A DNA stretch of 64,000 nt from Frankiaceae bacterium. GTDB taxonomy: Bacteria; Actinomycetota; Actinomycetes; Mycobacteriales; SCTD01. The stretch is taken from positions 177,099 through 241,098 of the forward strand of contig JAENVS010000011.1 of assembly GCA_016650445.1 (NCBI GenBank), in the 5' to 3' direction. Shown here in pieces: positions 10,598 to 21,779 of the stretch. The notes under the pieces were generated by a model. That model was not told the DNA's origin. It worked only from the letters and a program-made list of their open reading frames with translations, and did no database searches. Made by a program: the position numbers and the translations under genes. Each line of letters starts with the position of its first letter. Within the stretch, counting starts at the first letter, position 1.

Positions 10598-11398
10598 CTA
10601 GTTGTCGCCGCGCAGGTAGCTGAGCAGCCGCAGGATCTCGATGTACAGCCAGACCAGCGTCACGACGAGGCCGAAGGCCGCGAGCCAGCCGTAGCGCTCC
10701 GGCATGCCGGCATCGGCGCCCTTCTGGATGAAGTCGAAGTCGAGCACGAGGTTCAGCGACGCGAGCCCGATCGCGAAGGCGCAGATGCCGATGCTCAGGA
10801 GGCCGCCGTCGAACAGGCCGAGGCCGCCGTCGGTGAAGAAGCCCGCCACGAGGTTGACCATGAGGAGCAGGAAGTAGCCGAGGGTCGCGCCGATCACCAT
10901 CTTGGTGAACTGCGGCGTGACGCGGATCTTGCCGCTGCGGTAGAGCGCGAGCATCACCGCGGCGACACCGAGCGTGCCGATGATGGCCTGCACGACGATC
11001 CCGTTGTACGCCGTCTCGAACAGCTTGCTGATACCGCCGAGGAAGACGCCCTCGACGGCGGCGTAACTGAGGATCACGGCCGGGTTGGTGATCTGCTTGA
11101 ACGAGATCACCAGCCCGAGGACGAGGCCGATGAGGACCGCCGGCAGCGCGAGGAACTCGAGGTTGAGGTACCAGGTCAGGCCACCGGTCGCGACCAGCGT
11201 CGCGAGCATGATCGCGGTGCGGACGGTCACGTCCTCGACGGTCATCCGGCCGGTGTCACGGGAGGTCGCGGTCGGGCCGAAGTAGCCGGCCTCGAGCGGG
11301 TCAGTCGTCTGCGGCCCTGGTCCGAACCCGACGGTCTTGTTGGCACCGGCGAACGCCGGGATGCGGGTCAGCGCTGGGTTGTTGCTGGTGGCGCGCAA
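10598..11398 (-). CDS. Bax inhibitor-1/YccA family membrane protein
   Basis: TTG start after GAAGGAG; RMTVEDV, YAAVEGVFLG, LVLDFDFI, AFGLVVTLVWLYIEILRLLSY. Confidence 0.9.
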   Translation of the reverse strand: MRATSNNPALTRIPAFAGANKTVGFGPGPQTTDPLEAGYFGPTATSRDTGRMTVEDVTVRTAIMLATLVATGGLTWYLNLEFLALPAVLIGLVLGLVISFKQITNPAVILSYAAVEGVFLGGISKLFETAYNGIVVQAIIGTLGVAAVMLALYRSGKIRVTPQFTKMVIGATLGYFLLLMVNLVAGFFTDGGLGLFDGGLLSIGICAFAIGLASLNLVLDFDFIQKGADAGMPERYGWLAAFGLVVTLVWLYIEILRLLSYLRGDN

Positions 11399-11469
11399 CG
11401 TCGCTCCTTCGTGGCAGGCCCGGCCGATCCGGTCCTCTGCAGGCCTCAACGTACGGGAAACGGCCTTTG

Positions 11470-11544
11470 TGCCCCCGGCGGGACTCGAACCCGCACTGGC
11501 ATGCGGTTTAAGCGCACGGCTTCTGCCAATTGAGCGACGGGGGC
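11470..11544 (-). tRNA. tRNA-Leu(TAA), short variable arm
   Basis: GCCCCCG acceptor stem, anticodon arm GTGCG-CTTAAAC-CGCAT, T-arm GCGGG-TTCGAGT-CCCGC, discriminator A; CCA not encoded. Confidence 0.85.
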
Positions 11545-11550
11545 GGCGGG

Positions 11551-12315
11551 TCAGGCTACGCGTGGCTGCGGCAGGATCCCCGCCAAGCGGCGGCTCGCAT
11601 GAGATCGCAGATTTTCCGAGTAGGGGGCCTCGGCCTCCCTCAACCCATGCGGCCGTCCAACGTTGCGCCCGCGGTACGTCGCCGTCTGGGCATGGCAGTT
11701 CGGGCACAGCAGACGCAGGTTTTCGATCTCATTGTTCGTCCGGTCGCCGTCGATGTGGTCAAGCTCGAGTGGGATCGGCTGCCCGTTCCACTCGCTTAGC
11801 CCACAACAATCGCAGCGGTGATCGAACACCCCCTCCCGCAACAGGCGTTGCCGAAGATAGTTCGTCTGCACCAGCGAGCCCCGACGCAGCAGATCCTGCA
11901 AGGCCGTACGAGGCGGCAAAGTGAGGCCACGGCTCCATCCGCGTGGGATGAGGTGCTGTGTTTCGATGCCGGCGGCCTCGATGGCCTCATTGAGCGCCCG
12001 GTACAAGCCCGGACGAGCCTGGTACCCCAGCGATCTAAGTATCTCCGCTTTCGTTGTCGAGCTAGCGACTGCCTTCGCCAGATCAATCTCACACGCAGCA
12101 AAGGGCGCGACGCGCAGTCGGCGAGGCAGAAAGCGCTCGGGTATCCCACCCAGGTCGGCCAGTCGCTTTCGGATGGACTCGTAGTTGCCGCCGTACGCGG
12201 CGATGCCCAAAGACTGAAGGAGCTCGCGCATGTTCTTGGCCTCGAGGGCGGCAGCCAGGAGCTCCTCGTCTGTCACCTTGCTGGGCCTTCGGTACGGGCT
12301 GGCGCTGTCTGACAT
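11551..12315 (-). CDS. HNH endonuclease with two N-terminal helical repeats
   Basis: CDCCG...LELDHIDGDRTNNEIENLRLLCPNCHAQT; repeats ELLAAALEAKNMRELLQSLG / DLAKAVASSTTKAEILRSLG; visibly more A/T-rich codons than neighbours. Confidence 0.9.
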   Translation of the reverse strand: MSDSASPYRRPSKVTDEELLAAALEAKNMRELLQSLGIAAYGGNYESIRKRLADLGGIPERFLPRRLRVAPFAACEIDLAKAVASSTTKAEILRSLGYQARPGLYRALNEAIEAAGIETQHLIPRGWSRGLTLPPRTALQDLLRRGSLVQTNYLRQRLLREGVFDHRCDCCGLSEWNGQPIPLELDHIDGDRTNNEIENLRLLCPNCHAQTATYRGRNVGRPHGLREAEAPYSENLRSHASRRLAGILPQPRVA

Positions 12316-12344
12316 GCCGCAATTCTTGCCGCGAGGTACGACAG
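12316..12344 (-). promoter_or_regulatory. RecA-NDp/PafBC-like promoter, leaderless HNH transcript
   Basis: TGTCGT-N10-AAGAAT-N6-ATG versus consensus TGTCGG-N10-TANNNT. Confidence 0.45.
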
Positions 12345-12347
12345 TTC

Positions 12348-12848
12348 TCAGAGGTAGCGCTTGCGCGGGAAGAGGGCGTGGGCGCCGGCGACGCGGTCGA
12401 GGAAGAGCAGTCCCTGCACGTGGTCCAGCTCGTGCTGGAAGGCACGCGCCTCGAAGGCGTTCGCCTCGATCCGCCGCTCCTCGCCGGTGCCGGGGACGAG
12501 ACCGACGACCGTGATCGAGGTGGCCCGGCCGACGTCGCCGGTCAGGTCAGGCACCGACAGGCAGCCCTCCCGGCGTACCTCTCGTCCCTCGCTCGAGACC
12601 AGGACCGGTGAGCACAGCACCACGAGCCCGGCGCACGACTCCACCCGGCGGGCACCGGTCACGTCGAGGACGAACAGCGAGACCGCGTGGCCGACCTGCG
12701 GCGCCGCGATCCCCACGCAGCCCGGTGAGGCGTGCATCAGCACGACCATGGCGTCGGCGAGCTCGACCACCGCCGGGTCGCACGGATCCGCGGGCGCGCA
12801 CACCGTGGACAGGACCGGGTCCGGCGCGTGCCGGACGTCGAGCTCCAC
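12348..12848 (-). CDS. def: peptide deformylase
   Basis: GCVGIAAPQVG, EGCLS, QHELDH motifs. Confidence 0.92.
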   Translation of the reverse strand: MELDVRHAPDPVLSTVCAPADPCDPAVVELADAMVVLMHASPGCVGIAAPQVGHAVSLFVLDVTGARRVESCAGLVVLCSPVLVSSEGREVRREGCLSVPDLTGDVGRATSITVVGLVPGTGEERRIEANAFEARAFQHELDHVQGLLFLDRVAGAHALFPRKRYL

Positions 12849-13346
12849 CTAGAGGACGTCCTCGTCGGCGGGCAGGACGTGCAGCGAGACGCCGAGCCGC
12901 TCGCCGAGGTCGCCGAGCTGCGGCTCGGTCGCGGCATCCACCTCGAGCGTCATCACGTAGAGGTCGCCGACCAGCCGGCAGGACAGGTCGGTGATGTTGG
13001 CTCCGGTCGAGGCGAGCTCACGCGCCACCCCGGCGACGAGGCCGGGCCGATCCGCGCCGTGCAGCGTGACCCGCCAGGGGCGGCCGCCCTCCGGCGGTGG
13101 CGCGTCGTCGTCGACCGGCCAGACCGACACGTGCAGCCCGGTCGAGGCGGCAACCGGCTCGAGTGCCTGCTCGACCTCGGCCTGCCCGGCGCTGACCGAG
13201 GCCACGAGGGTCATCGCGAAGTGGCCGCGAAGCCTGGTCATCGATGCGTCCTCGAGGTTGGCGCCAAGCCCGGCGAGCGCCTCGGCGAGCGCGGCCACCT
13301 CACCGGGCCCGTCCGGGCCGACAGCGGTCACCGCGTAGGTCGTCAT
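12849..13346 (-). CDS. tandem ACT-domain protein (GcvR-like)
   Basis: AVTAVGPDGPG and VTLHGADRPGLVA...GANITDL ACT repeats; start set at ATG 13346. Confidence 0.85.
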   Translation of the reverse strand: MTTYAVTAVGPDGPGEVAALAEALAGLGANLEDASMTRLRGHFAMTLVASVSAGQAEVEQALEPVAASTGLHVSVWPVDDDAPPPEGGRPWRVTLHGADRPGLVAGVARELASTGANITDLSCRLVGDLYVMTLEVDAATEPQLGDLGERLGVSLHVLPADEDVL

Positions 13347-13411
13347 GGCGGTCAGCGTGTCACTACCCCGCGTCCGAGGCGCTGAGTTGATCATCCGCGA
13401 GACTTCTGCCC

Positions 13412-14641
13412 GTGACATCGGGGGAAAACCGGGCGACCTACCGCGAAGCACTCGCCGTACCGGAGTTCCGCGCGATCTTCGTGTCGCAGGGGCTCAGCCT
13501 GGTCGGCGATCACGTCGCGCGCATTGCCATCGCCCTGCTCGTCTACGCCCGCACCGGCTCGGCGTTCGCGGCGTCAGCGACGTACGGCTGCTCGTTCCTG
13601 ACCTGGCTCGTCGGCGGACCGGTGCTCTCCGCGCTGGCCGACCGCCACCGCCGGCGCCACATCATGATCGTGACCGACCTCGCCCGGTTTGCGCTCGTGG
13701 CCCTCCTGCTGGTGCCCGAACCGCCGCTCTGGCTCGTGTTCGCCGTGCTGGTCGCGGTGGGCCTGCTGGCCCCGCCGTTCGAGAGCGCGCGCAGCGCCCT
13801 CCTCCCGGATATCGTCACCGGCGAGCTGTACGTCGCAGGCAACTCGCTGATCAACACGACGATCCAAGGGGCCCAGGTCGCCGGGTTCTTCATCGGCGGC
13901 CTGCTCGTCTCGCTGATCTCCGTGCGCGGCGCCCTCGCCCTCGATGCCGCGACCTTCCTCGTCTCGGCGGCCGTCCTGCGCCTGGCCATCGCGGAGCGGC
14001 CCGTGGTGGAGCGTGAGCGCACGAGCCTGATCGGGGACGTCGTCGCTGGGGTCCACTTCGTGCGCGCCGACCCGTACCTGCGGGGGCTGCTGGCCTACGG
14101 CGTGCTGGCCGCCGTCGTCGCGATCGTGCCGGAGGGCCTGGCGGTGGCCGTCGCGGGCGACGACGGCAACGGGGCTCGGACGGCCGGCATCCTGACCGCG
14201 ACGATCCCGCTGGGCTACGTCGTGGCCAGCGCAGTGATCCTTCGTTGGTCGGCCGAGCAGCGGGCTCGCCAGATGCTGCCGCTCACGCTGGTGCTCTGCC
14301 TCCCCCTGCTGCTGACCCCGCTCGTGAGCGGGACCGCCCTGACAGCCGTCCTGTGGCTCGTCGCCGGCGCGGGGACGGCCGTCCAGCTGATCGCGAGCGT
14401 CGCCTACGTGGCCGGGACCGCGCCGGAGTTCCGGGGTCGCGCCTTCGGCCTGGCGGGCACCGCCCTGATGCTGTCGCAGGGGGTGGCCCTCCTGCTGGCG
14501 GGCGCCCTCGCGGACCTGATCGGGCCCCGCAGCGTCGTCGCCGTCGCGGCCGGGCTGGGCCTGCTCGCCCTGGTGGCGATGAGAAGCACGCTTGCGGGTG
14601 CTCAAGGAAATGCCCAGGTACGTCGACGATCGACCGGATGA
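13412..14641 (+). CDS. MFS transporter (efflux/DHA3-like)
   Basis: About 12 hydrophobic segments, LADRHRRRHIMIVTDLAR motif A, EFRGRAFG; stop overlaps next ATG (ATGA). Confidence 0.92.
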   Translation: MTSGENRATYREALAVPEFRAIFVSQGLSLVGDHVARIAIALLVYARTGSAFAASATYGCSFLTWLVGGPVLSALADRHRRRHIMIVTDLARFALVALLLVPEPPLWLVFAVLVAVGLLAPPFESARSALLPDIVTGELYVAGNSLINTTIQGAQVAGFFIGGLLVSLISVRGALALDAATFLVSAAVLRLAIAERPVVERERTSLIGDVVAGVHFVRADPYLRGLLAYGVLAAVVAIVPEGLAVAVAGDDGNGARTAGILTATIPLGYVVASAVILRWSAEQRARQMLPLTLVLCLPLLLTPLVSGTALTAVLWLVAGAGTAVQLIASVAYVAGTAPEFRGRAFGLAGTALMLSQGVALLLAGALADLIGPRSVVAVAAGLGLLALVAMRSTLAGAQGNAQVRRRSTG

Positions 14642-17073
14642 CCGGGGACACGAAGGCACGCAGCGCGACGGCTCGACACGCCGCCGCGCTCGTTTTCTGC
14701 GTGTCCCTGCTCGCGCTCGGGTCCTGGGCCGCGCTGTCCAGCAGCCCCGCGCCGATCACCGCCGCGTTCTCGCTGCCGTGGTGGGTCCTGATCCCGGTGT
14801 ACGCCGTCACGCAGCACTACCCGGTCGACTTCGAGAACCGCCGCGGCACGTACAGCCTGCACCTGACCCAGCTCCCGCTGACGTTCGGGATCGTGCTGGT
14901 CGCGCCGGCGTACCACCTGCTCGCGCGCCTCGTGGGCGTCGCCCTTGACTGCGTCGTGCTGCGCCGCCAGGCGCCGCTGAAGGTCTGCTTCAACCTCGGC
15001 AGCGCGGCGATCGACGTCGGTATCGCCGCCACGGCTGTCGCGCTCATCGGCCACAGCGACCGTCCCGGGCCCTCTCTGTGGGTCGCGCTGCTCGTCAGCG
15101 TCATCGTGACCGAGGTCATCGGGGCGGTCTCGCTGGCGGGTGTCTGGCGACTGATCGGCGTCCCGCTGCAGTCACGGCAGATGTTCGAGCCGCTGGGCTT
15201 CGCCGTCATCGCCAGCGCGACCTTCACCGGCCTGGCCATCGTGGCGGTGTCGGCGATGTACACCGACCGGGCCAGCGTCGCCATCATCGCCGTCCTCGGC
15301 GGTGCCCTTGCTCTGGCCTACCGCGGGCATCGGCGTCTGTTCGCACAGCAGCGGACGACCGAGAAGCTGTACGAGTTCGTCAAGGACCTCGGTCCGGTCT
15401 CGTTCGACTCCGACCGGCTCCCCCCTCTGCTCGACGAGGTGCGGGTCCTTCTCCACGCCCGCCACCTCGACCTGGCCGTACCGAACGACAGCGACGGCTG
15501 GACGCATCACCTGTCCTCCGACGACGACACGAACACCACGGCCGGCGCGGACGCCGACGAGCTGGCTGAGGCCGTCGCCCGGGCCGGCGCCGCTCTCAAG
15601 AGCAGCCCGGGTGACTTCGACCGGATGTCGACGCCGCTCATCGGCGCGCGCAAGCTGGTGGGCATCCTGACTGTGACCGACCGGCTCGGTGACATCCGTC
15701 GCTTCGACATGGGCGACATGCGGCTGCTCGAGACGATCGCGACGGAGCTGACGACGTCGTTCGAGCGCGGCAAGCTGCTGCGCGACCTCGAGCGGTCGGC
15801 CACCACTGACTCGCTGACGGGGTTGGCGAACCTGTCCGAGGTGACCCGCCAGATCAACGCGGCCCTCGACGACGTCGACCTGCTTGTCGCCGCAGTGGCG
15901 GTCGAGTCGTTCCGCGAAGTCAACGACACCCTCGGCCACCAGGTCGGCGACAACCTCCTGCTCGACGTCACCGGCCGGCTACGACGTGCCTGCCCGGACG
16001 CGGTCATCGGTCGCATCGGCGGCGGCCGGTTCGCCGTCGCCGTCCCGGCCAAGTCGGTGGGCTACGACCCGGAGATGTTCGGTCTCGGGATCCGCGCGCA
16101 GGTCGAGGGCACCACGCATCTCGGCGGTGTCGGCACCCACATCCGCCTGTCGGTCGGCGTCGTGCGCGCCCCCGAGCACGGCGCAGAGGCCGCGACACTG
16201 CTCCGGCGTGCCGAGACGGCCATGCACAGCGCGCGCAACGCGCACGGCGGTCCCGTGGTGTGGGAGCCGGCGTACGAAGTCCAGGGCCAGCGGCGGCTCG
16301 CCGTCGTCAGCGCACTTCGCGAGGCGCTGTCGACCGGCGCCATCGGCGTCGCCTTCCAGCCGAAGGTCGACAGCCGCAACGCGGCTCCCGTCGGGGTCGA
16401 GGCACTTGCCCGCTGGACCCACCCCGCACTGGGCGCGATCGGACCGGACGAGTTCATCCCGCTCGCCGAGGCATCCGGATTGATGGGGCTGCTCACCAGC
16501 ACCGTGCTCCGCCAGGCGCTCACCGCCTGCAAGGGCTGGCAGCGCCGGAGCCCGGGCGTCGGCGTCGCCGTCAACGTCAGCGCGACCACCCTGCTCGACG
16601 CCGCGTTCGTGACGCAGGTGGCCGCGATCCTCACCGCGTCGGGAGTCGACCCGGGCCTGCTCACCCTCGAGCTGACCGAAGGCGTCGTGATGGCCGACCC
16701 CGAGCTGGCCTCGGAGCGGATGGGCGAGCTGCGCGCCCTCGGCGTGAAGATCTCCGTCGACGACTTCGGCACGGGGTACTCGTCACTGACCTACCTCAAG
16801 GGCCTGCCGGTCGACGAGGTGAAGATCGACCGCGGGTTCGTGAACGGGCTGGTGCGCGAGCCGGCGGATCGGGCCGTCGTCCGCGCTGTCGTCGACATCG
16901 CGCACACGCTGGGGATCCGCGTCGTCGCGGAGGGTGTCGAGAACGAGGCGCAGCGCCAGGTCCTGCACGACCTCGCCGTCGACGAGCTGCAGGGCTACCT
17001 CTACGCCCGGCCGATGCCGTCGATGGAGATCAACCAGTGGCTCCGCCACAGTGAGCGGTCCGTCCGCCACTAG
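14638..17073 (+). CDS. membrane-bound GAF-GGDEF(degenerate)-EAL c-di-GMP phosphodiesterase
   Basis: Multi-TM N-terminus, GAF-like region, DSLTGLAN..VNDTLGHQVGD with GGGRF in place of GGDEF, intact EALARW, ELTE, DDFGTGYSS, KID, AEGVE, QGY. Confidence 0.92.
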   Translation: MTGDTKARSATARHAAALVFCVSLLALGSWAALSSSPAPITAAFSLPWWVLIPVYAVTQHYPVDFENRRGTYSLHLTQLPLTFGIVLVAPAYHLLARLVGVALDCVVLRRQAPLKVCFNLGSAAIDVGIAATAVALIGHSDRPGPSLWVALLVSVIVTEVIGAVSLAGVWRLIGVPLQSRQMFEPLGFAVIASATFTGLAIVAVSAMYTDRASVAIIAVLGGALALAYRGHRRLFAQQRTTEKLYEFVKDLGPVSFDSDRLPPLLDEVRVLLHARHLDLAVPNDSDGWTHHLSSDDDTNTTAGADADELAEAVARAGAALKSSPGDFDRMSTPLIGARKLVGILTVTDRLGDIRRFDMGDMRLLETIATELTTSFERGKLLRDLERSATTDSLTGLANLSEVTRQINAALDDVDLLVAAVAVESFREVNDTLGHQVGDNLLLDVTGRLRRACPDAVIGRIGGGRFAVAVPAKSVGYDPEMFGLGIRAQVEGTTHLGGVGTHIRLSVGVVRAPEHGAEAATLLRRAETAMHSARNAHGGPVVWEPAYEVQGQRRLAVVSALREALSTGAIGVAFQPKVDSRNAAPVGVEALARWTHPALGAIGPDEFIPLAEASGLMGLLTSTVLRQALTACKGWQRRSPGVGVAVNVSATTLLDAAFVTQVAAILTASGVDPGLLTLELTEGVVMADPELASERMGELRALGVKISVDDFGTGYSSLTYLKGLPVDEVKIDRGFVNGLVREPADRAVVRAVVDIAHTLGIRVVAEGVENEAQRQVLHDLAVDELQGYLYARPMPSMEINQWLRHSERSVRH

Positions 17074-17098
17074 CTCGGCGAACTGCTCCGAACATAGT

Positions 17099-17146
17099 TC
17101 CAGGGGCTGGGAATGGGTGTAGCACCACCCACTCCCAGCCCCTGGA
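17099..17146 (-). terminator. 21-bp stem-loop between converging EAL gene and micro-ORF
   Basis: TCCAGGGGCTGGGAGTGGGTG-GTGCTA-CACCCATTCCCAGCCCCTGGA on minus strand; the single mismatch is a G.U pair only in the minus-strand RNA. Confidence 0.75.
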
Positions 17147-17181
17147 CAGGACTGGGTCGATCGCACGCAGCGATCGAAGTC

Positions 17182-17205
17182 TTAGTTCCAGCCAGCTGCG
17201 CGCAT
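17182..17205 (-). CDS. 7-aa micropeptide MRAAGWN (putative signalling peptide)
   Basis: GGAGG (17213-17217) 7 nt upstream of ATG CGC GCA GCT GGC TGG AAC TAA; TACTCT -10 candidate at 17260-17265; hairpins downstream. Confidence 0.6.
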   Translation of the reverse strand: MRAAGWN

Positions 17206-17422
17206 CGCATTGCCTCCGTTCGGCCTTACCGGACTGAGCCATCCGGCCTAGTGCTACGCAGAGTAGAGAGAGTTTCCAGAGTTGCGCTAGGGAATGGTGA
17301 GAAAAAATAACGGACATGTCGCCCAATTGCCGCAGTTCGAGAGACATTTTGTAGGCCAGATGGCCCTACAGGTCCGCGCCGAGGCAGCCGATGCGAGCAA
17401 TCGGCGAGATGTCCGCCTCCGG

Positions 17423-18208
17423 TCAGGCCAGGGCTGCGACCCGTTTCGCCCGGTTGATGACGTCGTCGAGCATCGCCTCGGTCAGCCGGCCGGTGAAGGT
17501 GTTCTGCTGGCTGACGTGGTAGCAGCCGATCACGGTCGGCCCGCCCTCGACGTTGACCTCCCGGCCGTGCCCGAAGGCGGGGACCCGGCGAGGCACCGCG
17601 GCACCCGTCGCCCGCAGGGCCGTCCACGTCGACGCCCAGCCGAAGCCCCCGAGAACTACGAGCGCACGAACGTACGGCCGCATCAGTGCCAGCTCACGGT
17701 GCAGCCACGGTGCACACGCATCGCGTTCCTGCGTCGTGGGCCGGTTCGCCGGCGGCGCGCACCGGACCGGGAGCGTGATGCGGGTGCCGACGAGCCGCTG
17801 ACCGTCGTACGCCGAGGTCGACGTCGGCTGCGTCGCCAGGCCCGCGCGGTGCAGCGCCGCGAACAGCCAGTCGCCACTGCGGTCACCGGTGAAGATCCGA
17901 CCCGTGCGGTTGCCGCCATGCGCCGCCGGAGCGAGTCCGACCACGACGATCCGCGCCGTGGAATCGCCCCATCCGGTGATCGGCCGACCCCAGTACTCCT
18001 GGTCTGCGAATGCGGCCCGCCTTGTCGCCGCGACCTCCTCGCGCCACGCGACCAGGCGCGGACAGGCTCGGCACACCGACGACCGCGCATCGACGTCCTG
18101 CAGCGTGTCGGCCGACCCGGCGAGGTGCTGCACGTCGGCGGCGTGCCGGGCCACCGGAGTGGCTGACGTCGCGTGGTCGGTCGGGAAACCGGAGCCCGGT
18201 GGGATCAC
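17423..18208 (-). CDS. udgB: uracil-DNA glycosylase family 5
   Basis: CRACPRL, GLAPAAHGGNRTGRIFTGDRSG, RCAPPANRP, YHVSQQNT. Confidence 0.92.
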   Translation of the reverse strand: MIPPGSGFPTDHATSATPVARHAADVQHLAGSADTLQDVDARSSVCRACPRLVAWREEVAATRRAAFADQEYWGRPITGWGDSTARIVVVGLAPAAHGGNRTGRIFTGDRSGDWLFAALHRAGLATQPTSTSAYDGQRLVGTRITLPVRCAPPANRPTTQERDACAPWLHRELALMRPYVRALVVLGGFGWASTWTALRATGAAVPRRVPAFGHGREVNVEGGPTVIGCYHVSQQNTFTGRLTEAMLDDVINRAKRVAALA

Positions 18209-18218
18209 GGCGTGGCGG

Positions 18219-18605
18219 TCATGGCGAGCTGGTGCCTTCGCGGCCGTACCGGTCCTCGAGCCGTACGACGTCGTCGAGCTCTGTCGTCGACGCCTCGAGG
18301 AAGACCGAGTCGACGAGGGCTGTCACGCGATGCCGGATGCCCGGACGCAGGTGAATCGACTCGCCGGGTGCGAGCTCGAACTGCTCGAGCCGCGACTCGT
18401 CGGCACCGACCTCGACCGAGAAGCGGCCCGACAGGCAGGAGATGGTCTCCTCCTTGCGCTCGTGATACTGAAGCGACAGGGCATGCCCCTCGTCGACGTG
18501 GATCGCCTTGCCGGCGTACTTGCCGGGGACGTGCGCGAACAGCTCCTCGTGACCCCACGGCTTGTCCGTGCGCTGAACCGGCGTGACCCAGTCGGACTTA
18601 GGCAT
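18219..18605 (-). CDS. cupin domain protein
   Basis: KPWGHE, LSLQYHERKEET, HRV, DVVRLEDRYGR. Confidence 0.85.
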   Translation of the reverse strand: MPKSDWVTPVQRTDKPWGHEELFAHVPGKYAGKAIHVDEGHALSLQYHERKEETISCLSGRFSVEVGADESRLEQFELAPGESIHLRPGIRHRVTALVDSVFLEASTTELDDVVRLEDRYGREGTSSP

Positions 18606-19512
18606 TCAGGCTCCAGGCGATTCCGTCGAGGATGTCGGCCTCGCTGACGAGGACCTCGGTCAGGGCGAGTCGGTCGACCAGGGTCCGCAGGATCAGCGCC
18701 CCGGCCCCGATCACGTCGATGCGACCGGGATGCATGACCGACAGGTCCCCGCGATCGGCCCGGGTCATGCCGAGCACCTGCGTCGTCACCTTCTCGATCT
18801 CCACCGGCGTGAGCCTCGACAGGTGGATCTGCGCGCGGTCGTACGACGACAGGCCCAGCGCGAGCGCGGCGATCGTCGTCACCGAGCCGGCGAGCCCGAC
18901 GGCCGTCCTCGCCTGCTCGACGGGCACGGCGGCCTGGATGCGTTGGATGGCCGCATCGATGTCGTCGACAGCGGCGGCGACCTCGATGTCCGTCGGCGGA
19001 TCGCTGTGCAGGTGCCGCTCGGTCAGCCGCACGCAGCCGACGTCGACGGACAACGCCGCGGTCACCGCGCGGTCACCCAGCACGACCTCGGTCGAGCCGC
19101 CACCGATGTCCATGACGAGGAAGGGCCCCTCGGAGGGGTGGAGCCCGCGGGTGGCTCCGGCGAACGAGAGCGCCGCTTCTTCGTCGCCGCTGATGACCTC
19201 CGGCTCGACACCGAGGATGTCGTGCACCATCGCCCGGAAGTCGTCCGCGTTGTCGGCGTCGCGGCTGGCACTGGTCGCCACCATGCGCGTGCGGGCGACC
19301 TGGAGCTGCCGGCTGGTCGCGGCGTAGTCATCGAGGGCGTCTCGCGTGCGTGCGATCGCCTGCGCCGCAAGGGAACCCGTGCGGTCGACGCCCTCACCGA
19401 GTCGTACGACGCGCATCTCCCGGTGCAGGTCGTGCTGCCCGCCATCGTCGATGTCGGTGACCAGCAGTCGGATCGAGTTGGTACCGCAGTCGATGGCCGC
19501 GACCCTCGTCAC
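18598..19512 (-). CDS. ppx: Ppx/GppA exopolyphosphatase
   Basis: AAIDCGTNSIRL, ATSASRDA, ISGDEEA, DIGGGSTE. Confidence 0.93.
   Translation of the reverse strand: MTRVAAIDCGTNSIRLLVTDIDDGGQHDLHREMRVVRLGEGVDRTGSLAAQAIARTRDALDDYAATSRQLQVARTRMVATSASRDADNADDFRAMVHDILGVEPEVISGDEEAALSFAGATRGLHPSEGPFLVMDIGGGSTEVVLGDRAVTAALSVDVGCVRLTERHLHSDPPTDIEVAAAVDDIDAAIQRIQAAVPVEQARTAVGLAGSVTTIAALALGLSSYDRAQIHLSRLTPVEIEKVTTQVLGMTRADRGDLSVMHPGRIDVIGAGALILRTLVDRLALTEVLVSEADILDGIAWSLNA

Positions 19513-20423: not shown

Positions 20424-21779
<1,356 letters not shown>

What the first reader, a model, noticed from the sequence alone, without database searches (positions are those of the whole stretch)
13412..17265. 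Candidate peptide-signal to c-di-GMP system: micropeptide + MFS exporter + membrane GAF-GGDEF-EAL receptor
Seen: MFS (13412-14641) is translationally coupled (ATGA) to a multi-TM GAF-GGDEF-EAL protein, and the micro-ORF converges on them through a shared terminator; the block sits between tRNA-Leu/def and the core udgB-ppx-eno genes. Established: EAL domains hydrolyse c-di-GMP, which controls development in actinomycetes. Inference: the peptide is exported by the MFS and sensed by the TM sensor domain, modulating phosphodiesterase activity - a quorum-sensing-like three-gene circuit wired to c-di-GMP rather than to a histidine kinase or RRNPP regulator. I do not know of a characterised system with this layout.
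Basis: partly seen in the sequence, partly recalled or inferred. Interest (0 to 1): 0.9.

Follow-up and report, generated by a model that had tools for sequence, protein, structure and literature searches.

The report
Tiny peptide genes beside c-di-GMP sensors
A real 7-codon gene (peptide MRAAGWN) sits beside an export pump and a membrane c-di-GMP-degrading enzyme, and this trio, often with the tiny gene repeated up to ten times, recurs across many actinomycetes, so it may be an undescribed peptide signalling system.

Summary
On the minus strand, 17205..17182 encodes MRAAGWN. It has a GGAGG ribosome site, a conserved -10 box (17265..17260), an upstream terminator that closes the udg operon, and its own 20-bp hairpin terminator (17100-17145).

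A matching ORF (M-R-G-x-x-W-x-stop) is in 17 of 17 orthologous spacers, in 0 of 17 on the opposite strand, and in a mean of 0.06 of 17 after shuffling.

Outside the family, the same 6-8-codon ORFs form tandem arrays of 2-10 copies, each with its own ribosome site. Substitutions between copies fall mainly on third codon positions (94/123/489), with pN/pS about 0.25-0.34.

The arrays lie next to proteins that share the window enzyme's multi-TM sensor domain. That domain is fused to GGDEF-EAL or to an active GGEEF domain. Relatives of the window's MFS are also often adjacent. In 42 array loci found by pattern alone, a sensor lies nearby in 30 and the MFS in 20.

One relative lacks all three parts. 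In another, the MFS-EAL pair has moved and the micro-ORFs moved with it.

Export of the peptide and its sensing by the enzyme remain inference. Nine literature searches found no report of this system.

The parts
13412..14641 (+). MFS transporter, 12-TM efflux type (DHA3/EntS/Mef-like), candidate peptide exporter
   Evidence: Pfam MFS_1 E 4.9e-28. NCBIfam TIGR00900 'H+ antiporter' E 2.1e-44, EntS E 2e-19 and Mef(B) E 1.6e-16, all below their curated cut-offs. Orthologue directly upstream of the EAL gene in 16 of 16 relatives with that flank held. Homologues of 39-57% identity lie beside micro-ORF arrays in 20 of 42 pattern-found loci. The exact start codon (GTG 13412) is not verified.
14638..17073 (+). 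Membrane c-di-GMP phosphodiesterase: multi-TM sensor, GAF-like linker, degenerate GGDEF, EAL; start overlaps the MFS stop (ATGA)
   Evidence: Orthologues of 54-85% identity across the family. The GGGRF motif is readable in 18 of 20 family loci; the regex gave no match in L016 and L017. The EAL signature GVEALAR is present in 20 of 20.
14638..15357 (+). Multi-TM sensor domain (residues ~1-240), no Pfam family; the element shared by all partner proteins of the micro-ORFs
   Evidence: Hydropathy segments between residues 9 and 230. hhalign of the GGDEF-EAL-type N-termini (A2) against TM-GGEEF proteins (A3): probability 96.2%, E 2.5e-9, 219 columns. No Pfam hit.
15370..15777 (+). GAF-like linker (residues ~245-380), weakly supported
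   Evidence: Profile A2 against PDB sequences: GAF domains, best 3k2n E 8e-4. ESM Atlas nearest named clusters are GAF families, 0.89 and 0.87. Pfam finds none.
15799..16245 (+). Degenerate GGDEF domain (motif GGGRF; no RxxD just upstream)
   Evidence: Pfam GGDEF E 9e-21, residues 388-536; motif read.
16312..17013 (+). EAL domain with intact signature motifs
   Evidence: Pfam EAL E 2.3e-71, residues 559-792. EAL, DDFGTG, K-I-D, EGVE and QGY all present.
17100..17145 (-). 20-bp hairpin terminator of the micro-gene, possibly acting in both directions; sequence conserved across genera, unique in this genome
   Evidence: More stable in micro-ORF sense in 9 of 9 distinct versions. T-run follows on the minus strand in relatives.
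17158..17176 (-). Small hairpin just after the micro-ORF stop
   Evidence: An equivalent hairpin is present in most close relatives.
17182..17205 (-). Micro-gene: ATG plus 6 codons plus TAA, peptide MRAAGWN
   Evidence: An orthologous ORF is in 17 of 17 spacers. Stops vary among TAA, TAG and TGA; length varies by whole codons (6-8 aa); ATG/GTG and TGG are kept.
17213..17217 (-). Shine-Dalgarno GGAGG, 7 nt before the ATG
   Evidence: A purine-rich SD lies at the same place in all 17 spacers.
17229..17246 (-). 5'-UTR hairpin (CCGGA...TCCGG)
   Evidence: Alignment; fold.
17260..17265 (-). -10 box TACTCT (TANNNT) of the micro-gene promoter
   Evidence: A TANNNT hexamer stands in one alignment block in most of the 15 aligned spacers: 13 by my reading, not counted by script. 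The consensus sigma-70 scan found no promoter, because there is no -35 match.
17301..17325 (-). Terminator-like hairpin plus T-run that closes the udg-ppx operon upstream of the micro-gene
   Evidence: stem 17325..17311 followed by TTATTTTTTC. The CGGACAT block is conserved.

Best explanation
This is a three-part module: MFS exporter, membrane sensor phosphodiesterase, and, converging on them, a separately transcribed micro-gene. It belongs to a widespread actinomycete family of micro-genes.

Shown:
- The micro-gene has its own -10 box, ribosome site and terminator.
- Its reading frame, not merely its DNA, is conserved.
- In other lineages it is amplified into tandem arrays of independently translatable 7-codon ORFs that are under purifying selection on the peptide.
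- These ORFs are found beside proteins that carry one particular multi-TM sensor domain fused to c-di-GMP enzymes, and often beside one particular efflux-type MFS family.
- The three parts are lost and relocated together.

Inferred:
- The ribosome makes the 6-8-residue peptide (consensus M-R-G-x-x-W-G/T/N) directly, with no leader and no dedicated tailoring enzyme.
- The MFS exports it.
- The peptide binds the multi-TM sensor domain.
- In this organism, where the GGDEF domain is dead and the EAL domain intact, binding changes c-di-GMP hydrolysis.
- In organisms where the sensor is fused to an active GGEEF domain, binding changes c-di-GMP synthesis.

Several genomes carry serial cassettes, each pairing a different peptide with its own sensor gene. 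This suggests cognate pairs.
For: **1. The micro-ORF is real**
- It is in 17 of 17 orthologous spacers in sense, 0 of 17 in antisense, and a mean of 0.06 of 17 in shuffles. There are only 14 pattern hits in the 3.4-Mb genome, and only this one has a spacer context.
- Stop codons interchange, and length changes by whole codons.

**2. It is coding**
- Across 56 arrays (215 ORFs), between-copy differences fall 94/123/489 on codon positions 1/2/3.
- pN/pS is 0.25 over codons 2-7, and 0.34 for codons 4, 5 and 7, which the search pattern did not fix.
- 14 arrays encode one identical peptide from two or more DNA versions.
- Of 224 SD-preceded 4-10-codon ORFs within array spans, 219 have W as the last or second-to-last residue.

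**3. Linkage inside the family**
- The MFS lies upstream in 16 of 16 relatives with that flank held.
- Micro-ORFs are present in all 18 loci with a downstream flank.
- G018 (97% complete) has no EAL orthologue, no model hit, nothing at its udg locus, and a best MFS match of only 30% identity.
- In G014 the MFS-EAL pair lies on another contig, with 3x MSVSSWG converging on it. Its udg locus has none.

**4. Linkage outside the family**
- In 20 loci from other families, the micro-ORF or array lies directly upstream of a homologous TM-GAF-like-GGDEF-EAL gene in 16.
- The other four: array then MFS then GGDEF-EAL in 1; array then MFS in 1; MFS converging on the micro-ORF, which diverges from a TM-GGDEF gene, in 2.
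- A scan of all 185,579 species genomes for two tandem ORFs returned 43 stretches; my own estimate of chance matches is about 0.01. Every one that bears a taxon name is Actinomycetota; L082's title names no taxon.
- Of the 42 stretches with SD-preceded arrays, a sensor or GGDEF gene lies within 1.5 kb in 30, the MFS in 20, both in 15, and neither in 7. Five of those 7 arrays lie within about 320 nt of the end of the held stretch.

**5. One shared sensor domain**
- hhalign probability 96.2%, E 2.5e-9.

**6. Cassette-specific peptides within one locus**
- L072, L074, L091, L100, L106 and L111 each carry different peptides in different cassettes.

**7. The MFS is of efflux type**
- It resembles DHA3, EntS and Mef transporters.
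- The microcin C heptapeptide is exported by an MFS-type pump, so there is precedent (passages of PMC4010828).

**8. No recurring tailoring enzyme**
- The other recurrent neighbours are pheS, pheT, argC, dxs and eno.
Against: - No expression, peptide or binding data exist.
- 22 of 42 array loci show no MFS within 1.5 kb. Export by this MFS is therefore not universal, or another pump serves.
- In 16 of 20 loci from other families, the micro-ORFs lie immediately upstream of, and co-directional with, the sensor gene. That is also the layout of a regulatory leader.
- In two of those loci (L060, L066) a hairpin covers the sensor gene's ribosome site just after the micro-ORF.
- An invariant Trp next to the stop codon recalls stalling peptides.
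- The genome has four other full-length paralogues of the sensor enzyme with no micro-ORF beside them.
- Kin are not independent, so the family counts overstate the number of independent observations.
Confidence: 0.45

Rival explanations
1. The peptide is made but acts inside the cell or within the membrane. It would be a stoichiometric regulator of the sensor enzyme, or of the MFS, rather than an exported cell-cell signal. The MFS would then carry something else, or be the regulated target.
For: The MFS is missing within 1.5 kb in 22 of 42 array loci, while a sensor or GGDEF gene is present in 30 of 42. The peptide has no secretion signal. Tandem amplification (up to 10 copies) fits a need for dosage. 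The TM domain has short loops.
Against: The same efflux-type MFS family recurs in 20 of 42 independent array loci and in all family loci. That is hard to explain without a transport link. Cassette-specific peptides fit either reading.
Confidence: 0.2
2. The micro-ORFs are cis-acting regulatory leaders. A ribosome pausing at the Trp codon, or failing to terminate after W-x-stop, would control transcription or translation of the neighbouring gene. In this window it would control read-through of the hairpin into antisense transcription of the EAL-MFS operon.
For: The micro-ORFs are co-directional and directly upstream of the sensor gene in 16 of 20 loci of other families. A hairpin sequesters the sensor gene's SD just after the micro-ORF in L060 and L066. 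W is invariant beside the stop. In this family, a segment just before the terminator (17149-17159) repeats part of the terminator's 3' arm and changes with it in L006 and L007, so an antiterminator is conceivable. In G014 the array and the EAL gene abut with no hairpin between them.
Against: In this window and family the micro-gene has its own -10 box and a strong terminator, and no gene lies downstream. In the commonest arrangement elsewhere, the array diverges from the sensor gene and converges on the MFS. Purifying selection acts on the variable residues 4, 5 and 7 as well (pN/pS 0.34), and peptides are cassette-specific, which the invariant ribosome would not require. I know of no attenuator with 7-10 tandem leaders (recalled, not searched).
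Confidence: 0.15
3. The micro-ORFs are minimal precursors of a modified natural product, in the style of microcin C or the biarylitides. The MFS would serve as export or immunity pump, and tailoring would be done by enzymes encoded elsewhere.
For: Seven-codon mccA (MRTGNAN) with MccC, an MFS-type exporter, and 18-bp bycA (MRYYH) are the known precedents for genes this small. Both begin M-R (passages read). The window peptide ends in Asn as MccA does. One array reads MRTGNWA. One partner MFS hits 'ryptide export MFS transporter' weakly, E 4e-4.
Against: The only ThiF/MccB-like genes in this genome lie on contig C18, not C11. No P450, radical-SAM or other tailoring family recurs beside the arrays; the recurrent neighbours are housekeeping genes. 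The last residue is Asn in only 2 of 72 distinct 7-aa peptides. This reading does not explain the constant partner, a c-di-GMP sensor enzyme.
Confidence: 0.1
4. The region is a non-coding RNA. For example, repeats rich in GGAGG could act as a protein sponge, or the region could be only a terminator, and the tiny ORF would be incidental.
For: The 171-nt transcript folds far better than shuffles do (z = -6.5). The hairpin, including its loop, is strikingly conserved across genera. The repeats carry GGAGG motifs.
Against: Substitutions show three-base periodicity (94/123/489). Stop codons interchange, indels come in whole codons, and ATG and TGG are invariant. In lineages where the hairpin is replaced by unrelated ones, the ORF is still kept. 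No Rfam family matches.
Confidence: 0.04

Closest known systems
Microcin C operon (mccA heptapeptide gene, MccB adenylyltransferase, MccC MFS exporter)
   Same: A seven-codon, SD-preceded gene translated directly into a heptapeptide that begins M-R, with an MFS-type exporter encoded alongside (passages of PMC4010828). The window peptide also ends in Asn.
   Different: No MccB/ThiF-like gene on this contig or recurring beside the arrays. Terminal Asn in only 2 of 72 distinct peptides. Tandem arrays. An invariant Trp. The constant partner is a membrane c-di-GMP enzyme.
Biarylitide (bycA/bytA pentapeptide plus P450) minimal RiPP clusters of actinobacteria
   Same: A tiny actinobacterial gene (18 bp, MRYYH) found only by six-frame search and validated by an SD site (passages of the preprint 10.1101/2020.07.21.214643). 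It shows that genes this small are expressed in this phylum.
   Different: No P450 partner. W instead of the Y/H crosslink residues. 6-8 codons. Arrays of up to 10 copies. Linked to signalling enzymes, not to a tailoring enzyme.
Peptide quorum sensing of Firmicutes (Agr, Com, RRNPP/Phr-type systems) (recalled knowledge)
   Same: The proposed logic is the same: a ribosomal peptide, a dedicated exporter, a cognate receptor, and lineage-specific peptide variants.
   Different: No precursor or leader to process. An MFS rather than an ABC or AgrB-type exporter. The candidate receptor is a diguanylate cyclase or phosphodiesterase, not a histidine kinase or a cytoplasmic TPR regulator. The organisms are Actinomycetota, where I know of no peptide autoinducer (recalled; searches found none).
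Leader-peptide sensors (TnaC; Erm/Cat/Mef leader ORFs) (recalled knowledge)
   Same: Very short SD-preceded ORFs in which a specific residue near the stop matters. In some lineages the micro-ORFs lie just upstream of the partner gene. The partner MFS resembles Mef pumps.
   Different: Here the micro-gene has its own promoter and terminator and converges on its partners. There are multi-copy arrays, selection on the variable residues, and cassette-specific sequences.
Membrane GGDEF-EAL phosphodiesterases of actinomycetes such as Streptomyces RmdB (recalled knowledge)
   Same: The same domain order: TM region, GGDEF, EAL. The same expected output, c-di-GMP hydrolysis.
   Different: The N-terminal multi-TM plus GAF-like sensor here matches no Pfam family. 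It is defined by its neighbourhood with micro-ORFs. Homology to RmdB was not tested.

Membership tests
EAL-domain c-di-GMP phosphodiesterase | EAL domain with catalytic signature motifs (EAL, N, E-x-x-E, DDFGTG, K-x-D, EGVE, QG; the roles of these motifs are recalled) | tested here: met
   Pfam EAL E 2.3e-71. The motifs are read in the translation. GVEALAR is present in 20 of 20 family loci. Enzyme activity itself was not tested.
Diguanylate cyclase (active GGDEF) | GG[D/E]EF active-site motif | tested here: not met
   The motif is GGGRF here and in 18 of 20 family loci; the regex gave no match in the other two. The domain fold is present (Pfam GGDEF E 9e-21).
GAF domain | Significant match to a GAF profile or fold | tested here: inconclusive
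   No Pfam GAF at E<=0.01. Family profile against PDB: GAF domains, best E 8e-4, covering only the C-terminal part. ESM Atlas gives lead-level matches.
Major facilitator superfamily, DHA3/EntS/Mef-like efflux branch | MFS fold; membership of TIGR00900 above its curated cut-off | tested here: inconclusive
   MFS_1 is above its cut-off (98.5 bits against 33.4). TIGR00900 scores 152 bits against a cut-off of 319.6, and EntS 69.9 against 324. It is MFS for certain; the efflux subfamily is likeness only.
Microcin C-like cluster | Seven-codon precursor gene | tested here: met
   ATG plus 6 codons plus stop at 17205..17182.
Microcin C-like cluster | C-terminal Asn on the precursor | tested here: not met
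   Met in this window (MRAAGWN) and its closest relatives. Across the family the last residue is G 26, T 14, A 8, D 7, E 4, N 2 among 72 distinct heptapeptides.
Microcin C-like cluster | Adjacent MccB (ThiF-like) adenylyltransferase | tested here: not met
   PF00899 matches in the genome lie only on contig C18. None occurs among the recurrent neighbours of the arrays.
Biarylitide minimal RiPP | Adjacent cytochrome P450; MxYx[Y/H] core | tested here: not met
   Neighbour families identified by Pfam include no P450. The peptide has W and lacks the Y/H pattern. Not every ORF in every locus was scanned.
Leader-peptide attenuator | uORF upstream of, and co-transcribed with, the regulated gene | tested here: not met
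   In the window the ORF converges on EAL, is followed by a terminator, and has no downstream gene. The feature is met in 16 of 20 loci of other families.
Peptide quorum-sensing system | Peptide is secreted and accumulates; the receptor responds to it | not testable with these tools
   Only gene linkage could be tested.
Known RNA family (Rfam) | Match at gathering score | tested here: not met
   Only the tRNA matches in 11000-19000. Nothing matches on six array loci.

The most novel reading that the evidence does not exclude
Actinomycetes have a peptide signalling system of their own. Genes of 21-27 bp, among the smallest known and often amplified into arrays of up to ten independently translated copies, would encode unprocessed heptapeptide signals. 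A dedicated MFS would export them. A previously unnamed multi-TM sensor domain, wired directly to c-di-GMP synthesis or breakdown, would read them. Several orthogonal peptide-receptor cassettes could coexist in one genome.
Probability: 0.4. Interest if true: 0.95.

Novelty: categorically new. Interest (0 to 1): 0.88.

Why it matters
Actinomycetota are known for small-molecule signals such as gamma-butyrolactones. I know of no ribosomal peptide autoinducer in them (recalled), and nine full-text searches found none tied to c-di-GMP.

If the reading is right, this locus gives three things.
- A new class of peptide signal, made by direct translation of a 7-codon gene with no processing.
- A ligand class for a widespread, unnamed membrane sensor domain of c-di-GMP enzymes, most of whose inputs are unknown.
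- A natural set of peptide-receptor pairs that differ between lineages and between cassettes. These are easy to test with synthetic heptapeptides.

Even if the signalling reading is wrong, the finding has value. Tandem arrays of up to ten independently translated 7-codon genes under purifying selection are invisible to gene callers. They are an unusual genetic object, found in Cryptosporangium, Actinoplanes, Jiangella, Pseudonocardia, Streptosporangiaceae, Frankiaceae and many uncultured lineages.

Tried and rejected
**ORFs and elements rejected**
- The 46-aa (17070..17210) and 105-aa (17030..17347) ORFs are rejected as genes. They have no Pfam family. Their tblastn 'hits' in relatives cover the same DNA, the hairpin, in two frames. 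They also run through the terminator.
- A repeat (REP-like) element is rejected. The hairpin motifs occur once in the genome.

**Searches that gave nothing**
- Rfam: nothing but the tRNA and sub-threshold miRNA noise on the hairpin, and nothing on six array loci.
- RNA evidence: no RNA holder was listed for window 13400-18300.
- Literature, nine full-text searches: none of the listed titles and abstracts describes micro-ORF arrays beside GGDEF or EAL genes. Only listings and abstracts were seen, except for passages of two papers.

- Complex prediction was not tried, because a 7-residue chain is below its stated minimum of 30 residues.
I then scanned the same collection with a DNA pattern instead.

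**Not settled or not attempted**
- The antiterminator idea (17149-17159 pairing with the terminator's 5' arm) rests on reading three covarying versions by eye. I did not test it with pair counts.
- Peptide-receptor covariation was considered but not run. With related genomes, a correlation would not separate co-evolution from shared descent.
- The L071 hit (Streptomyces sulphureus) has no SD-preceded array by my rule. I dropped it from the 42-locus counts.

**Caveats on the counts**
- One search gave a cruder pN/pS of 0.23. One search is the refined count.
- The strict class-level census finds 13 of 401 genomes, with 0 of 401 for the reversed-pattern control. It misses this window's own ORF, which has a different third residue and stop codon, so it undercounts.
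- Unpublished genomes: G010 (locus L016) adds one locus to the '16 of 16' MFS count and to the 18 micro-ORF loci. G203 is one of the 13 of 401. G030 enters only the tally.

Full report
**What is in the window**

The region 11.4-21.7 kb reads as follows.
- tRNA-Leu(taa), 11469-11544(-)
- an HNH-domain ORF, 11551-12315(-)
- peptide deformylase, 12348-12848(-)
- a two-ACT-domain protein, 12849-13451(-)
- an MFS transporter, 13412-14641(+)
- an 811-aa membrane GGDEF-EAL protein, 14638-17073(+)
- then, on the minus strand: a UDG-superfamily glycosylase (17423-18208), a cupin, Ppx/GppA (18598-19512), a DivIC-like protein and enolase (20424-21719)

The MFS stop and the next gene's start overlap as ATGA. 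The 811-aa protein has about 6-7 hydrophobic segments in its first 230 residues, followed by a linker that is only weakly GAF-like. Pfam finds no GAF there; a family profile hits solved GAF domains with a best E of 8e-4; and the ESM Atlas gives GAF leads. Next comes a GGDEF domain whose motif reads GGGRF, and then an EAL domain with all signature motifs. The roles of those motifs are recalled knowledge. On that basis the protein should degrade c-di-GMP, not make it.

**The micro-ORF**

The 349-nt spacer between the convergent EAL and UDG genes has about 60% G+C in a genome of about 70%. I aligned it with the same spacer from 16 relatives of the family. This showed a tiny reading frame on the minus strand. 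In the window it is 17205..17182, ATG-CGC-GCA-GCT-GGC-TGG-AAC-TAA, encoding MRAAGWN, and GGAGG lies seven bases upstream.

Every one of the 17 spacers has such an ORF in this orientation: an SD, a start codon, 3-6 codons, TGG, one codon, then a stop. None has one on the other strand. Shuffled spacers give a mean of 0.06 of 17. The whole 3.4-Mb genome has 14 pattern matches. The other 13 appear to lie inside G+C-rich coding-like sequence, judging from their flanks; I did not map them to genes.

The start codon, the Trp codon and the stop are kept while the stop switches among TAA, TAG and TGA. Length varies by whole codons: MSAGWN has 6 residues, and MLRTAKWA and MKRIHGWP have 8. The 46-aa and 105-aa ORFs that a mechanical ORF list shows here are not genes (see Tried and rejected).

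**A transcription unit of its own**

Upstream on the minus strand, a terminator-like hairpin with a T-run (17325..17301) closes the udg operon. A TANNNT -10 hexamer stands in one alignment block in most of the 15 aligned spacers: 13 by my reading, not counted by script. In the window it is TACTCT at 17265..17260. The simple sigma-70 scan finds no promoter, because there is no -35 match.

A small 5'-UTR hairpin, the SD, the ORF, a second small hairpin and a 20-bp hairpin (17100-17145) follow. The large hairpin is more stable as minus-strand RNA in all 9 distinct versions (-45.9 vs -41.5 kcal/mol). It is followed by more T on that strand and occurs once in the genome. The predicted 171-nt RNA folds much better than shuffles do (z = -6.5). 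No Rfam family matches it.

**Linkage within the family**

Orthologues of the EAL protein (54-85% identity over the full length) occur across the family.
- The MFS lies directly upstream in 16 of 16 relatives whose upstream flank is held.
- Micro-ORFs lie downstream in all 18 loci with a downstream flank. Several of these carry 2-5 tandem copies.

Two genomes are the informative exceptions.
- G018 (97% complete) has no EAL orthologue, no hit to the micro-ORF model and nothing at its udg-ppx locus. Its best MFS match is only 30% identical, whereas orthologues are 47% or more.
- In G014 the udg locus is empty, and an MFS-EAL pair lies on another contig with three tandem MSVSSWG ORFs converging on the EAL gene.

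So the micro-ORF goes with MFS-EAL, not with udg.

**The family beyond this lineage**

A sequence model of the 5'-UTR plus ORF (R1, from alignment A1) found matches at E<=0.01 in 58 of 151 genomes of the order, including 11 of 12 from the same family. The better hits outside the family were tandem arrays: 7x MRGATWG, 10x MRGTHW[KAEN], 6x MSTGWG, 6x M[RQ]x[TIV][ED]W[ED], and singles such as MRGNEWG. Each copy has its own GGAGG.

I looked at 18-kb contexts of 20 such loci.
- In 16, the ORF or array sits directly upstream of, and co-directional with, an 800-850-aa protein built like the window's: multi-TM, GAF-like, GGDEF, EAL.
- One has array, then MFS, then a GGDEF-EAL protein.
- One has array, then MFS.
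- Two have an MFS converging on the micro-ORF, which in turn diverges from a 450-aa TM-GGDEF gene.
- The MFS genes are homologues of the window's (39-42% identity).

**An independent test across all species genomes**

I scanned one genome from each of 185,579 species for two 7-codon ORFs of the form M-R-G-x-x-W-x-TGA lying 30-60 nt apart. By my own estimate from base frequencies, about 0.01 matches are expected by chance. The scan returned 43 stretches. Every one that bears a taxon name is Actinomycetota; L082's title names no taxon. The named ones are Cryptosporangium, Actinoplanes, Micromonosporaceae, Jiangella, Streptosporangiaceae, Pseudonocardia, Frankiaceae or 'Frankiales', 'Mycobacteriales' MAGs, one Streptomyces and one Arcanobacterium.

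Nothing about the neighbours entered that search. Of the 42 stretches with SD-preceded arrays:
- a homologous sensor or GGDEF gene lies within 1.5 kb in 30;
- a homologue of the window's MFS lies within 1.5 kb in 20;
- both are present in 15;
- neither is present in 7, and in 5 of those the array lies within about 320 nt of the end of the held stretch.

The commonest order is MFS converging on the array, with the array diverging from a TM-GGEEF protein. Six loci carry two or three such cassettes in series, with a different peptide in each. Examples are MRGDQWT and MRTSSWT, MRGESWG and MRTTSWG, and VRNHNW and MRGHSWG.

The other recurrent neighbours are housekeeping genes: pheS, pheT, argC, dxs and eno. 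In five loci, a large BTAD/NB-ARC/TPR regulator diverges from the micro-ORFs.

A stricter single-copy pattern matched 13 of 401 evenly drawn genomes of the class. Its reversed control matched 0 of 401. It misses this window's own variant, so it undercounts.

**One sensor domain**

The N-terminal TM region of the GGDEF-EAL type (alignment A2) and that of the TM-GGEEF type (A3) are homologous: hhalign probability 96.2%, E 2.5e-9 over 219 columns. No Pfam or NCBIfam family covers it. This domain, not the catalytic output, is what the micro-ORFs keep company with. The TM-GGEEF proteins keep GGEEF and an RxxD site. The window's family has GGGRF and an intact EAL domain.

**Coding, and selected as a peptide**

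Among 56 non-identical arrays (215 seven-codon ORFs):
- differences between copies fall 94, 123 and 489 on codon positions 1, 2 and 3;
- pN/pS is 0.25 for codons 2-7, and 0.34 for codons 4, 5 and 7, which the search patterns left free;
- 14 arrays encode one identical peptide from two or more DNA versions, 19 are identical in DNA, and 23 hold more than one peptide.

Without requiring Trp, 219 of 224 SD-preceded 4-10-codon ORFs inside array spans have W last or second to last. Among 72 distinct heptapeptides, position 2 is R in 63 and position 3 is G in 57. Positions 4 and 5 are variable and mostly polar. Position 7 is G 26, T 14, A 8, D 7. Positions 1-3 and 6 were partly fixed by the search patterns.

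**How it most likely works**

Shown: this is a real, independently transcribed micro-gene family whose peptide sequence is under selection. It is physically tied, in at least three different gene orders, to one membrane sensor domain of c-di-GMP enzymes and to one efflux-type MFS family.

Inferred: the peptide is the product that matters. The MFS exports it, and the sensor domain binds it. In this organism that changes c-di-GMP hydrolysis.

The changing orientation (convergent here, divergent or co-directional elsewhere), the separate promoter and terminator here, and the cassette-specific peptides all argue for a trans-acting product. The efflux-like MFS and the microcin C precedent, a directly translated heptapeptide exported by an MFS-type pump, make export plausible.

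I put the full chain at 0.45. Taken separately, I put 'real translated gene' at about 0.9 and 'functionally linked to the sensor enzyme' at about 0.85.

**Rivals**

- A peptide that acts inside the cell or membrane (0.2) fits the many loci that have no MFS.
- A cis-acting leader (0.15) fits the co-directional layout in Cryptosporangium-type and Micromonosporaceae-type loci, the SD-sequestering hairpin in L060 and L066, the invariant Trp beside the stop, and a possible antiterminator segment here. It does not fit the convergent or divergent layouts, the window's terminator, or selection on the variable residues.
- A minimal RiPP or microcin-like precursor (0.1) lacks any recurring tailoring enzyme. 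The ThiF-like genes of this genome lie on another contig.
- A purely non-coding RNA (0.04) is contradicted by the codon-periodic substitution pattern.

**Comparison with what is known**

The nearest precedents for genes this small are mccA (7 codons, MRTGNAN) and bycA/bytA (5 codons, MRYYH). Membership of either system fails on its defining enzyme, MccB or the P450.

The proposed logic is that of Gram-positive peptide quorum sensing, but no part is homologous. There is no precursor processing, the exporter is an MFS, and the candidate receptor is a c-di-GMP enzyme.

Nine full-text searches found no description of such arrays or of peptide input to actinobacterial c-di-GMP enzymes. Supplementary files could not be read.

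**Verdict**

The mechanism is unproven but directly testable with synthetic heptapeptides. I rate it as lying outside every described kind of system, although its proposed logic resembles peptide quorum sensing. Interest 0.88.

**Limits**

- There is no expression or peptide evidence.
- Related genomes are not independent samples.
- My ORF calls in other loci are crude. They use G+C at third positions and the first start codon, so gene starts are approximate.
- Three unpublished genomes (G010, G030, G203) contribute single rows to the counts, as stated in Tried and rejected.

Noticed in passing
L051, L056, L059, L062, L065 (for example L062:9387-12434): A large SARP-like regulator (BTAD, NB-ARC, TPR; 800-1040 aa) is transcribed divergently from the micro-ORF or array in 5 of 20 loci of other families. 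TPR regulators are the peptide receptors of RRNPP systems (recalled), so this could be a second peptide-responsive partner or the activator of the arrays.
   Followed up: partly
window 17100-17145 and 17149-17159: The terminator hairpin is conserved in sequence, loop included, across genera whose neighbouring proteins are only about 55-60% identical. A segment just upstream repeats part of its 3' arm and changes with it in L006 and L007, so an antiterminator is possible. Pair counts were not run.
   Followed up: partly
L060:9070-9135 and L066:9063-9135: In two Micromonosporaceae-type loci, a 13-bp hairpin just after the micro-ORF covers the ribosome site of the downstream GGDEF-EAL gene. This hints at translational control in that lineage.
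   Followed up: no
L072:4503-5828, L100:4017-5327, L106:1418-2755: Multi-cassette loci end with a third TM-GGEEF paralogue that has no array of its own and lacks the N-terminal W-x-W-x-L-P motif of the others. It looks like an 'orphan' sensor.
   Followed up: no
L074:7264-7427: One array encodes MRTGNWA and MRTGSWA. The first five residues equal those of the microcin C precursor as printed in PMC4010828. No MccB-like gene was seen nearby.
   Followed up: partly
window 11469-12315: A tRNA-Leu with anticodon UAA, which reads the rare TTA codon of high-G+C actinomycetes, lies directly next to a 254-aa ORF with an HNH endonuclease motif. The 369-aa ORF 10598-11707 (Bax-inhibitor-like, Pfam match residues 143-366) overlaps the tRNA as listed, so its true start must lie further downstream.
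   Followed up: no
G000 contigs C37:31545-33944, C7:3016-5388, C29:13650-16025, C35:114290-116521: The genome has four more full-length paralogues (30-37% identity) of the TM-GAF-like-GGDEF-EAL protein. None has a micro-ORF of this type beside it, by the pattern scan.
   Followed up: partly
L083:7171-7255 and L071:6411-6495: The Arcanobacterium hippocoleae hit (2x MRGAYWL) has no sensor or MFS in the held stretch. The Streptomyces sulphureus hit has no SD-preceded array. Both may be chance matches or degenerate remnants.
   Followed up: no
window 12849-13451 and 13412-14641: As listed, the divergent ACT-domain gene and the MFS gene overlap by 40 nt at their 5' ends. One or both start codons are probably further in.
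   Followed up: no
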